Part shown: positions 5,142 through 5,468 of the stretch, piece by piece
How the letters are laid out: each line of letters starts with the position of its first letter
Numbering within the stretch: the first letter of the stretch is position 1
Source: a virus
Length of the DNA stretch: 22,197 bases
Strand: one strand, 5' to 3'
UHGV virus genome: UHGV-0363730
Notes under the pieces: model-generated
Databases searched by the model: none
What the model was told of the DNA's origin: nothing
What the model saw: the letters and a program-made list of their open reading frames with translations, nothing else
Translations under genes and position numbers: made by a program

Positions 5142-5468
5142 ATGAAAAGACGCCTTTTACTACTTTTTCTGTTATCTGTCCTGGCAGTGGGATGCTCGCA
5201 GCAAAAAGCTGATGAGCCCCGGCAATTAGTGACGGTGTATCCACGATATCCGGAATATGCTGCAGCAAATTATATCAAGGGGCTGGTTGAGGTTAAGTTC
5301 GATATTGGTGCTGATGGGACTGTGACACGGATCGTTTTTCTCCGCTCAGAGCCTCATAATTTGTTTCGTGATGAAGTGGTGAAGGCCATGGCGAAATGGC
5401 GATTTGAAAAGAATCGCCCCTGTCAGGGAGTGAAGAGACAATTTATCTTTACGCCGTCACGTCCTTGA
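5142..5468 (+). CDS. Lipoprotein with TonB C-terminal-like domain (108 aa), moron between Rz and cos
   Basis: RBS AGGA 6 nt upstream of ATG 5142; signal peptide with lipobox LAVGC; mature region YPRYPEYAAANYIKGLVEVKFDIGADGTVTRIVFLRSEPHNLFRDEVVKAMAKWRFE matches the conserved TonB C-terminal domain pattern (YP..A....I.G.V.VKFD...DG.V......P...F..EV..AM..WR.E) as recalled; visibly more AT-rich than the structural genes (not computed). Confidence 0.7.
   Translation: MKRRLLLLFLLSVLAVGCSQQKADEPRQLVTVYPRYPEYAAANYIKGLVEVKFDIGADGTVTRIVFLRSEPHNLFRDEVVKAMAKWRFEKNRPCQGVKRQFIFTPSRP

What the first reader, a model, noticed from the sequence alone, without database searches (positions are those of the whole stretch)
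5142..5468. Lipoprotein moron carrying a TonB C-terminal domain, between the lysis genes and cos
The ORF has a lipoprotein signal peptide (lipobox LAVGC) followed by a ~85-aa domain whose conserved positions track the TonB C-terminal domain (YPRYP…VEVKFDIGADGTV…EPHNLFRDEVVKAMAKWRFE). It lacks the TonB N-terminal membrane anchor and proline-rich spacer. It has its own RBS, looks more AT-rich than the structural genes, and sits in the classic moron slot (where lambda carries bor). A free periplasmic TonB-C domain could compete with host TonB for TonB-box receptors (FhuA, BtuB, FepA and similar), which would give superinfection exclusion against TonB-dependent phages or colicins, or alter iron uptake. 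This is a hypothesis; I do not recall such a prophage protein being characterised.
Basis: partly seen in the sequence, partly recalled or inferred. Interest (0 to 1): 0.75.

Follow-up and report, generated by a model that had tools for sequence, protein, structure and literature searches.

The report
Prophage lipoprotein made of TonB's C-terminal domain
A small gene just after the lysis genes of this lambda-like prophage encodes a predicted outer-membrane lipoprotein that is only the receptor-docking end of the host protein TonB; it is common in E. coli and Salmonella prophages, is transcribed in a lysogen, has no tested function, and may jam TonB-dependent entry of phages and colicins.

Summary
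Window 5142..5468 (+) encodes a 108-aa protein with a lipoprotein signal peptide (LAVG|C18, Ser at +2). Residues 24-103 are a genuine TonB C-terminal domain: Pfam TonB_C E=7e-13, E. coli TonB CTD 1u07 E=1.4e-14, and an AF2 model 1.0-1.1 A from TonB in its BtuB and FhuA complexes. It lacks the TonB membrane anchor and proline-rich spacer. It sits between Rz/Rz1 and cosN (6232), and its GC is 46.8% against 54.1% for the window.

It is not new as a gene. The identical protein is annotated in phage 21, ev017 and Perceval, and is found in 1225 of 5426 complete E. coli genomes. A second allele is in 415 more. A published LF82 transcriptome lists it as a moron, 8-fold above prophage background. dN/dS is about 0.13, so it is not a decaying fragment. 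The PHROG label "Rz-like spanin" is wrong.

New here: homologues lie directly after the spanin genes, on the same strand, in at least six phage lineages with different lysis and terminase modules. Non-phage chromosomal relatives also exist.

I found no functional study in the held library. My best reading (about 0.4) is an outer-membrane-tethered, unenergised TonB decoy that damps TonB-dependent import. That mechanism is inferred, not shown.

The parts
5142..5468 (+). CDS of the 108-aa TonB_C lipoprotein (stop codon included)
   Evidence: ORF listing and sequence. 100% identical to phage 21 CPT_21_73, 'TonB C-terminal domain protein'. dN/dS 0.13 against the 72%-identical allele.
5132..5135 (+). 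Shine-Dalgarno-like AGGA, 6 nt before the ATG
   Evidence: Read from the sequence. An RBS is annotated at the same place in phage 21.
5142..5195 (+). Lipoprotein signal peptide (aa 1-17: MKRR plus a hydrophobic core) and the lipidated Cys18 codon (5193-5195). Ser19 at +2 predicts outer-membrane sorting.
   Evidence: PROSITE-type lipobox match. Cys is invariant in alignment A2 and +2 is never Asp. Lipidation and sorting are inferred from the Asp+2 rule, not tested.
5211..5450 (+). TonB C-terminal domain (aa 24-103, equivalent to E. coli TonB 151-230)
   Evidence: Pfam, TIGRFAM and PDB sequence matches. AF2 pLDDT of 96-98 across the domain. Foldseek: 1u07 rmsd 1.1 A, 2gsk_B rmsd 1.0 A, 2grx_C rmsd 1.2 A, at 38-40% identity.
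4979..5141 (+). Upstream block conserved between the two E. coli alleles. It includes AGTCrGATAAT (a -10-like GATAAT at 5064-5069) and the start of a short upstream ORF (4987..5124). This is the candidate regulatory or promoter region.
   Evidence: Alignment of the window with L076, L077 and JLK-2012. Only weak -35/-10 candidates were found. No Fur box (best 11/19). No Rfam family.
5561..5583 (+). GC-rich hairpin (GGCGTTGT-N7-ACAACGCC) followed by a T-rich tract (5584-5609). Possibly a weak terminator for the unit.
   Evidence: RNA fold of 5440-5640. It was not called by the simple terminator scan, so it is tentative.
3312..4831 (+). Lysis cassette upstream: holin 3312-3527, SAR-type endolysin 3532-4065, a 57-aa ORF 4189-4362, i-spanin Rz 4364-4831 with embedded o-spanin Rz1 4584-4769
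   Evidence: PHROG holin, endolysin and Rz-like spanin hits. Shows that the TonB_C protein is not the phage's spanin.
6232..6243 (+). cosN cohesive-end sequence GGGCGGCGACCT. The right end of phage 21 maps to 6231.
   Evidence: blastn of the phage 21 right end against the window: 4842-6231 at 98.7% identity.
6413..8861 (+). Terminase small (6413-6961) and large (6891-8861) subunits, the start of the packaging and head module
   Evidence: ORF list. RefSeq annotation of the nearest prophage.

Best explanation
The gene encodes a small lipoprotein. After signal-peptidase II processing it should be anchored by Cys18 in the inner leaflet of the outer membrane. [quoted passage not shown]

Because it has the TonB fold but no link to ExbB/ExbD, it is expected to bind TonB boxes by beta-strand augmentation without pulling. 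The boxes could belong to transporters such as FhuA, BtuB, FepA or Cir, or to incoming group B colicins. The protein would then compete with host TonB.

The predicted result is lysogenic conversion: lower TonB-dependent uptake, and so lower sensitivity to TonB-dependent phages, colicins and microcins, at some cost in siderophore and B12 uptake.

Shown: domain identity and fold, the lipobox, purifying selection, wide spread, transcription in a lysogen (from the literature), and conserved position after the lysis cassette.

Inferred: outer-membrane location, TonB-box binding, and every phenotype.
For: - Genuine TonB_C domain: Pfam 49.2 bits, E. coli TonB CTD at E=1.4e-14.
- AF2 model with pLDDT 87.7 overall and 96-98 in the domain. 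It superposes on TonB as seen bound to BtuB (2gsk_B, 1.0 A over 79 columns) and to FhuA (2grx_C, 1.2 A).
- In the alignment, the residues I recall (my knowledge, not a tool result) as the conserved YP motif and functionally important aromatics of E. coli TonB are kept: Y163/P164 = Y36/P37, F180 = F53, G186 = G59, F202 = F75, W213 = W86, Y215 -> F88, F230 = F103. The last strand (aa 94-103) corresponds to the TonB strand that pairs with the TonB box (PMC11658791).
- Lipobox with an invariant Cys, +2 never Asp, and a Cys-to-YP spacing fixed at 18-19 residues in the E. coli and Salmonella phage members.
- dN/dS of 0.13 between alleles.
- Transcribed 8-fold above prophage background in an LF82 lysogen (PMC9928086).
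- Precedent for the mechanism: over-expressed periplasmic TonB domain inhibits transporter-mediated iron import.
- Precedent for the strategy: Llp and Cor are small outer-membrane lipoproteins that inactivate FhuA from the periplasmic side.
Against: - No binding or phenotype data exist, and none could be computed here.
- PADLOC has no model for it.
- In the alignment, TonB R158, Q160 and R166 are replaced by T31, Y33 and Y39. From memory, these residues contact transporter plugs or the TonB-box region.
- From my knowledge, transporters can outnumber TonB, so a competitor would have to be abundant or act locally. The laboratory precedent needed over-expression.
- Phage 21 uses LamB (PMC12803456) and its J protein is lambda-like. 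The gene is therefore not a self-receptor block of the Cor or Llp kind.
- Relatives sit in ordinary chromosomal contexts in Raoultella and other bacteria, which hints at a housekeeping periplasmic role.
- The strict position directly after the spanins, on the late-operon strand and with no terminator in between, could point to a late or lysis-linked role instead.
Confidence: 0.4

Rival explanations
1. Late-gene or lysis-associated role. The lipoprotein would be made with the lysis proteins from the late promoter and act at the outer membrane around the time of lysis. It might engage peptidoglycan or outer-membrane proteins to tune envelope disruption. Alternatively it might silence TonB-dependent receptors on infected cells and debris.
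For: It lies directly downstream of the spanin genes, on the same strand, in at least six lineages with different holin, endolysin and terminase types:
- window and phage 21
- JLK-2012
- Klebsiella phage ST13-OXA48phi12.4
- L096
- L091, L085 and L093 from Salmonella
- a prophage on a Salmonella plasmid

No + strand terminator or clear promoter separates it from Rz. PHROG 1267 groups it under 'lysis'.
Against: - Every one of these phages already has a complete i-spanin and o-spanin pair.
- The protein is a folded alpha/beta domain, unlike the short proline-rich o-spanins, and it has no C-terminal membrane helix like a u-spanin.
- It is transcribed in an uninduced lysogen.
- Close family members are chromosomal and not in prophages.
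- The slot after Rz is a general moron site; bor sits there in phage 21.
Confidence: 0.15
2. A metal-uptake or envelope-physiology factor rather than a defence. The domain would bind a particular transporter or peptidoglycan to adjust iron, manganese or B12 traffic or outer-membrane stability. That would benefit the lysogen in the gut or in macrophages.
For: - All 7 phage records carrying this allele also carry the sitABCD iron/manganese transporter.
- Both are expressed as morons in LF82.
- Chromosomal relatives sit next to stress or envelope genes: ahpCF, GST, and the DUF1440/YagU family.
- It is common in extra-intestinal and adherent-invasive E. coli, including Nissle 1917.
Against: - 20 of the 27 sit-carrying phage records lack it. 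Phages with the second allele, and the nearest relative of this window's prophage, lack sit. The link looks like shared ancestry.
- No Fur box lies upstream.
- A TonB domain with no energy coupling cannot drive transport by any known mechanism.
Confidence: 0.15
3. It targets the Ton machinery itself, not TonB boxes. It would pair with the C-terminal domain of host TonB, or with ExbD, and hold TonB unproductively at the outer membrane.
For: It has the same fold as the TonB CTD. From my knowledge, shorter TonB CTD fragments crystallise as intertwined dimers (1ihr appears among the hits). The outcome would be the same loss of TonB-dependent uptake.
Against: The TonB dimeric crystal forms are reported not to exist in vivo (title of PMC3005593, listed). 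A tether of about 10 residues at the outer membrane is unlikely to reach ExbD. Nothing was tested here.
Confidence: 0.08
4. A non-functional remnant of a captured tonB gene (the 'TonB fragment' or 'partial tonB-like' annotation) that does nothing.
For: Annotations in ev017 and Perceval call it partial or a fragment. It covers only the last ~85 residues of TonB.
Against: - dN/dS is 0.13 at dS 1.37 between alleles, and 0.13 between the Salmonella members.
- It has acquired a conserved lipoprotein signal peptide that TonB does not have.
- It is only about 40% identical to E. coli TonB, so it is not a recent pick-up.
- It is intact in 1221 of 1225 E. coli genomes at 80% coverage or more.
- It is transcribed.
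Confidence: 0.03

Closest known systems
E. coli TonB C-terminal domain (residues ~150-239; PDB 1u07, 1xx3, 2gsk chain B, 2grx chain C)
   Same: Same Pfam and TIGRFAM domain, about 40% identity, predicted structure within 1.0-1.2 A. The YP motif and the aromatic core are kept, and the last strand, which pairs with TonB boxes, is present.
   Different: It has no N-terminal membrane anchor and no proline-rich spacer, so no coupling to ExbB/ExbD. A lipoprotein signal peptide takes their place. It ends 4 residues earlier (equivalent to TonB 235). R158, Q160 and R166 are not conserved.
Engineered periplasmic TonB fragments (Howard, Herrmann, Stratilo and Braun 2001, J Bacteriol 183:5885)
   Same: A TonB C-terminal part delivered to the periplasm without its energy-coupling anchor, reported to inhibit TonB-dependent iron import (as cited in PMC9841981). 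This is the mechanism proposed here.
   Different: Those were laboratory constructs, soluble and over-expressed. This is a natural, phage-borne, lipid-anchored version under purifying selection. The original paper is not in the held library, so I did not read its details.
Llp of phage T5 and Cor of phi80, HK022, N15 and mEp167 (superinfection-exclusion lipoproteins)
   Same: Small phage-encoded lipoproteins of the inner leaflet of the outer membrane. They act on a TonB-dependent transporter (FhuA) from the periplasmic side (bioRxiv 10.64898/2026.03.26.714494).
   Different: The fold is different and there is no sequence relation. Llp and Cor are specific to FhuA, the receptor of the phages that carry them. 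A TonB_C decoy would be receptor-agnostic. Its carrier phage 21 uses LamB, so it would not block its own receptor.
Lambda Bor and other morons of the slot between lysis genes and cos
   Same: Small outer-membrane lipoprotein genes placed after Rz and expressed in lysogens.
   Different: bor is on the opposite strand with its own promoter, and it coexists with this gene in phage 21. This gene is on the late-operon strand, and no clear promoter was found.
Spanins (the PHROG 1267 label 'Rz-like spanin')
   Same: A lipoprotein encoded next to the lysis genes. PHROG 1267 matches at E=5e-43.
   Different: The window has its own Rz and Rz1 (phrog_13 and phrog_3198). The protein is a folded TonB_C domain with no C-terminal membrane helix. 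The label appears to come from position, not function.

Membership tests
TonB_C domain (Pfam PF03544 / TIGR01352) | Profile score above the curated threshold | tested here: met
   PF03544: 49.2 bits against 24.6. TIGR01352: 47.4 against 27.1.
TonB_C domain (Pfam PF03544 / TIGR01352) | Compact fold of two helices packed on a small beta-sheet that superposes on solved TonB CTDs | tested here: met
   AF2 pLDDT of 96-98 in the domain. Foldseek: 1u07 E=3e-8, rmsd 1.1 A, target TM-score 0.90; 2gsk_B target TM-score 0.92.
TonB_C domain (Pfam PF03544 / TIGR01352) | Conserved YP motif and aromatic core (the residue list is from my knowledge of E. coli TonB) | tested here: met
   Y36, P37, F53, G59, F75, W86, F88 and F103 align with TonB Y163, P164, F180, G186, F202, W213, Y215 and F230. 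Most are invariant or nearly so in the family alignment.
TonB energy transducer (NCBIfam equivalogs NF008080-NF008084) | Whole-protein score above the equivalog cut-off | tested here: not met
   Best is 69.2 bits against a cut-off of 315. Only profile positions 156-240 of 249 are matched.
TonB energy transducer (NCBIfam equivalogs NF008080-NF008084) | N-terminal cytoplasmic-membrane anchor and proline-rich periplasmic spacer | tested here: not met
   108 aa in all. Residues 1-18 are a signal peptide with a lipobox, and the domain starts at about residue 24.
TonB energy transducer (NCBIfam equivalogs NF008080-NF008084) | Binding of TonB boxes of transporters or colicins | not testable with these tools
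No complex prediction or experiment is available.
Bacterial outer-membrane lipoprotein | Signal peptide ending in a lipobox with an invariant Cys | tested here: met
   LAVG|C18 fits the PS51257 pattern. 15 of 24 family members tested fit it, and two more have near-lipoboxes. The Cys is invariant in alignment A2.
Bacterial outer-membrane lipoprotein | No Asp at +2 (Lol sorting to the outer membrane), actual lipidation, and actual location | tested here: inconclusive
   +2 is Ser here and S, T or A in the relatives. Lipidation and localisation need experiments.
Moron (autonomously expressed accessory gene in a prophage) | Transcribed in the lysogen above the silent prophage background | tested here: met
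   From the literature, for the identical protein in Perceval: LF82_160 'TonB fragment', 8-fold above background (PMC9928086 Table 1). Not measured for this window's strain.
Moron (autonomously expressed accessory gene in a prophage) | Own promoter and terminator; atypical base composition | tested here: inconclusive
   Composition is atypical (46.8% against 54.1% GC). There is no convincing sigma-70 promoter and only a weak hairpin terminator. The upstream 160 nt are conserved between alleles.
Spanin (o-spanin or u-spanin) | The phage's only outer-membrane lysis lipoprotein, either short, proline-rich and unstructured, or carrying a C-terminal membrane helix | tested here: not met
   A separate Rz/Rz1 pair is present. 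The protein is a folded domain with no C-terminal hydrophobic helix. The same holds in the related phages.
Llp/Cor superinfection-exclusion lipoproteins | Llp/Cor fold or sequence family | tested here: not met
   The fold search returns only TonB and TolA-type domains. There is no significant match in the viral structure library. The PHROG hits are 1267 and 34172, not Cor or Llp families.
Llp/Cor superinfection-exclusion lipoproteins | Inactivates a TonB-dependent receptor and excludes phages | not testable with these tools
   Needs plating, adsorption and transport assays.
Known anti-phage defence systems (PADLOC-DB 2.0) | Match to a catalogued defence protein model | tested here: not met
   0 families at E<=1.

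The most novel reading that the evidence does not exclude
Temperate phages of E. coli, Salmonella and Klebsiella carry a natural 'anti-TonB' protein: an outer-membrane-tethered, unenergised TonB C-terminal domain. It would protect lysogens against the whole class of TonB-dependent phages, colicins and microcins by blocking the energy-coupling step rather than any one receptor. In the phage 21 lineage it travels with the sitABCD iron/manganese transporter, which from my knowledge does not depend on TonB and could offset the cost in iron.
Probability: 0.3. Interest if true: 0.75.

Novelty: new variant of a known kind. Interest (0 to 1): 0.55.

Why it matters
One allele or the other occurs in up to about 30% of complete E. 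coli genomes (1225 and 415 of 5426, with some overlap). Carriers include Nissle 1917, LF82 and ST1193 strains. A related cluster is found on more than 1000 Salmonella contigs.

If the protein damps TonB-dependent import, it would be a receptor-agnostic form of lysogenic conversion. It would affect several things:
- susceptibility to phage therapy
- colicin and microcin warfare in the gut
- uptake of siderophore-antibiotic conjugates, which from my knowledge enter through TonB-dependent transporters
- iron and B12 acquisition

It would also be a natural version of the TonB-inhibitor idea now pursued as an antibiotic strategy (PMC9841981). The test is cheap: one small gene, standard phages and colicins, and K-12 hosts.

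Tried and rejected
1. Spanin reading, from the PHROG 1267 label. Rejected: the window and every related phage have their own Rz and Rz1, and the fold is TonB_C.

2. Decaying tonB fragment. Rejected on dN/dS of 0.13, the acquired lipobox, and intact copies in more than 1200 genomes.

3. Iron regulation through a Fur box upstream. Best match is 11/19, no better than background.

4. A riboswitch or known RNA in the flanks. The only hit is a chance miRNA match at E about 1.

5. Self-receptor exclusion of the Cor or Llp type. Unlikely, because phage 21 uses LamB and its J protein is lambda-like to the C-terminus.

6. sitABCD as an obligatory partner. All 7 allele-1 phage records have it. However, 20 sit-carrying phages lack the gene, and phages with the second allele and the nearest prophage to this window lack sit.

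7. AF2 of a TonB-box fusion, to test binding.

8. The genome-contig scan gave only 2 loci, one of which is a 418-bp contaminant contig in an actinobacterial assembly. The first alignment was too diverse for pattern search.

9. Literature. Ten searches found no functional study. There are only annotation-level mentions, plus the LF82 moron table. Howard et al. 2001 itself is not held.

Full report
**What is there**

Window 5142..5468 (+) is a 108-aa ORF preceded by AGGA at 5132-5135. The N-terminus reads MKRR, then a hydrophobic core, then L-A-V-G-C18. This fits the PROSITE lipoprotein pattern.

Residues 24-103 are a TonB C-terminal domain:
- Pfam PF03544: 49.2 bits against a cut-off of 24.6, E=7.3e-13.
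- TIGR01352: 47.4 bits against 27.1.
- phmmer against PDB sequences: E. coli TonB CTD 1u07 at E=1.4e-14, aligning residues 24-103 with TonB 151-230.

The full-length TonB equivalog models match only over their last ~85 positions and fall far below their cut-offs (69 against 315 bits). The membrane anchor and the proline-rich spacer are therefore absent.

An AF2 model built on 22 family sequences has pLDDT 87.7 overall and 96-98 across the domain. Foldseek places it on E. coli TonB CTD (1u07, rmsd 1.1 A over 84 columns). It also matches TonB as seen in the BtuB and FhuA complexes (2gsk_B 1.0 A, 2grx_C 1.2 A), at 38-40% identity.

In the alignment the YP motif and the aromatic core are kept: Y36, P37, F53, G59, F75, W86, F88 and F103 align with TonB Y163, P164, F180, G186, F202, W213, Y215 and F230. 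That these TonB residues are the important ones is my own knowledge. The last strand (aa 94-103) corresponds to the TonB strand that pairs with TonB boxes (PMC11658791). R158, Q160 and R166 of TonB are not conserved; they are T31, Y33 and Y39 here.

**Surroundings**

Upstream lies a complete lysis cassette (PHROG hits):
- holin 3312-3527
- endolysin 3532-4065
- Rz 4364-4831, with Rz1 embedded at 4584-4769

Downstream, the right end of phage 21 maps to 6231. The 12-nt cohesive end GGGCGGCGACCT is at 6232-6243 and Nu1 starts at 6413. Window 4842-6231 is 98.7% identical to the right end of phage 21. Phage 21 has bor between Rz and this block; the window does not.

The gene has 46.8% GC and 43% GC3. 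The window has 54.1% GC, and the terminase and portal genes have GC3 of 58-61%.

**Already annotated, never characterised**

The identical protein is annotated as:
- 'TonB C-terminal domain protein' in phage 21
- 'Partial tonB-like membrane protein' or 'TonB family protein' in ev017
- 'TonB fragment' in Perceval
- 'hypothetical protein' in three phages from ECOR strains

It occurs in 1225 of 5426 complete E. coli genomes, Nissle 1917 among them. A 72%-identical allele, found in Stx1a phages, JLK-2012 and Lys8385Vzw, is in 415 genomes. A 44-47% identical cluster is widespread in Salmonella enterica. Further members sit in a Klebsiella phage and on Klebsiella, Pantoea and Serratia plasmids.

Ten literature searches found no functional study. 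The most informative item is Table 1 of PMC9928086. It lists Perceval LF82_160 'TonB fragment' as transcribed 8-fold above the local prophage background in an uninduced LF82 culture, alongside sitABCD and the repressor.

**It is a working gene**

dN/dS is 0.13 between the two E. coli alleles (dS 1.37) and 0.13 between Salmonella members. The lipobox Cys is invariant, +2 is never Asp, and the Cys-to-YP distance is fixed at 18-19 residues in the E. coli and Salmonella phage members. At about 40% identity to E. coli TonB, it is not a recent capture of the host gene.

**New comparative points**

1. Homologues sit immediately after the spanin genes, on the same strand, in at least six lineages that differ in holin, endolysin (GH24 or GH19) and terminase type (lambda Nu1/A, HK97-like with HNH, P27-type, others):
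   - window and phage 21
   - JLK-2012
   - Klebsiella phage ST13-OXA48phi12.4
   - L096
   - L091, L085 and L093
   - a prophage on Salmonella plasmid pLG26p2

2. An exhaustive profile-free search found about 20 short (105-135 aa) TonB_C-only proteins, most with lipoboxes. Three that I could place are in ordinary chromosomal neighbourhoods: Raoultella next to lacZ/lacI and a DUF1440 gene, and others next to ahpCF and GST, or next to Usp and an acetyltransferase. The phage genes therefore belong to a wider, unstudied family of stand-alone TonB_C lipoproteins.

3. The PHROG 1267 label 'Rz-like spanin' (E=5e-43) is a positional mis-annotation. Every phage examined has its own i-spanin and o-spanin pair.

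**Regulation**

Simple scans find no sigma-70-type promoter and no terminator on the + strand between Rz and the gene. There is no Fur box and no Rfam element.

The 160 nt upstream are nevertheless conserved between the two alleles, even though synonymous sites in the coding region are near saturation. The conserved block includes a -10-like GATAAT at 5064-5069 and the first ~10 codons of a short upstream ORF.

A GC-rich hairpin with a T-rich tail lies at 5561-5609. The gene is probably read both from the late operon and from a weak or regulated promoter of its own. Only the lysogen transcription is documented.

**Most likely mechanism (confidence about 0.4)**

[quoted passage not shown] This follows the established Asp+2 rule and is an inference. 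A tether of about 10 residues would hold the domain directly under the periplasmic face of the TonB-dependent transporters, where TonB docks in 2grx and 2gsk.

With no link to ExbB/ExbD, the domain can only occupy TonB boxes, whether on transporters or on incoming group B colicins. It cannot pull. That would make it a competitive inhibitor of TonB.

Two precedents support this. Over-expressed periplasmic TonB domain inhibits transporter-mediated iron import (Howard et al. 2001, via PMC9841981). Llp and Cor are outer-membrane lipoproteins that shut FhuA from the periplasmic side.

Several points count against it:
- No binding test was possible.
- Contact residues R158 and R166 are lost.
- Stoichiometry is a concern.
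- Chromosomal relatives exist.
- Phage 21 uses LamB, so this would protect against other phages, not against the carrier's own kind.

**Rivals**

- A late or lysis-linked role (0.15). It is favoured by the strict synteny and disfavoured by the complete spanin sets, the lysogen expression and the chromosomal relatives.
- A metal-uptake or envelope-physiology role (0.15). It is suggested by co-carriage of sitABCD in all 7 allele-1 phage records. That link is not general.
- Sequestration of TonB or ExbD itself (0.08).
- An inert remnant (0.03), contradicted by the selection data.

**Verdict**

The domain assignment and the moron status are supported. The functional hypothesis is reasonable and has precedent, but it is untested. 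It also needs one correction: the protein is predicted to be anchored in the outer membrane, not free in the periplasm.

The gene is known to databases, so the novelty lies in the proposed function and in the conserved linkage to the lysis cassette. I rate it a new variant of known kinds: phage lipoproteins that act on TonB-dependent transporters, and dominant-negative TonB fragments. Interest is moderate to good, because the gene is very common and the decisive experiments are simple.

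Noticed in passing
window 5142-5468; PHROG 1267: PHROG 1267, to which this protein belongs at E=5e-43, is labelled 'Rz-like spanin' under the lysis category. Its members are TonB_C lipoproteins sitting next to genuine spanin pairs, so the label looks like a positional mis-annotation that will spread in phage annotation pipelines.
   Followed up: yes
L100 9968-13417 (phage 21 record 21967-25416): All 7 phage records carrying the identical TonB_C gene (21, ev017 twice, PhiR47_2, PhiR57_1, PhiR63_2, Perceval) also carry the sitABCD iron/manganese ABC transporter as a moron. 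20 other sit-carrying phages lack the TonB_C gene. Phages with the second allele, and the closest prophage to this window (ST1193 strains), lack sit.
   Followed up: partly
L084 8738-9298; L102 232-858; L113 447-1061: A DUF1440/YagU-family membrane protein gene lies near the TonB_C lipoprotein gene in three unrelated Klebsiella or Raoultella settings. It is adjacent on the chromosome, about 3 kb away in phage ST13-OXA48phi12.4, and about 4 kb away on an IncFII plasmid. This may be a trace of the chromosomal locus from which the mobile copies came.
   Followed up: no
window 4987-5124: A short ORF just upstream (45 aa; annotated as hypothetical CPT_21_72 in phage 21). Its start and first ~10 codons (MVEETG.C.T) are conserved in the 72% allele, but there the ORF stops after 21 codons. 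The conservation may be regulatory (a leader or promoter region) rather than protein-coding.
   Followed up: partly
window 4189-4362; L091 1907-2083: A 57-58 aa ORF with a C-terminal hydrophobic helix sits immediately before Rz, between endolysin and spanin. It belongs to phrog_6632 (unknown function). It recurs before Rz in a Salmonella prophage, so it may be an unrecognised lysis-cassette component.
   Followed up: no
window 5591-5944 (- strand): A minus-strand ORF between the TonB_C gene and cos matches phrog_4843 (unknown function) over its last 59 residues. RefSeq annotates a 59-aa hypothetical protein there in related prophages. It would converge on the TonB_C gene.
   Followed up: no
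L085 6001-6333, L091 1323-1655 (Salmonella cluster P0037): The Salmonella homologues start with GTG. Many database entries are 95 aa long and begin at the Met inside the lipobox (..LMGC..), which removes the signal peptide and hides the fact that the protein is a lipoprotein.
   Followed up: partly
L091 256-2549: This Salmonella prophage has two spanin sets in tandem: endolysin, then an i-spanin and o-spanin pair, then the TonB_C gene, then a second Rz/Rz1 pair related to the window's. It looks like the junction of two lysis modules, with the TonB_C gene between them.
   Followed up: no
window 4832-4842: Compared with phage 21, the window lacks bor. Similarity to phage 21 stops near the end of Rz and resumes at 4842, so the bor segment is absent while the TonB_C block is retained at 98.7% identity.
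   Followed up: partly
window 6183-6201: The best Fur-box-like match in the whole window (15 of 19) lies in the AT-rich stretch just before cosQ and cosN, not near the TonB_C gene. It is probably a composition effect.
   Followed up: no
L083 (NZ_SJEX01000172.1, 418 bp): A 418-bp contig in a Modestobacter excelsi (actinobacterium) assembly carries a 100% identical piece of this E. coli prophage gene. This is almost certainly contamination of that assembly.
   Followed up: no
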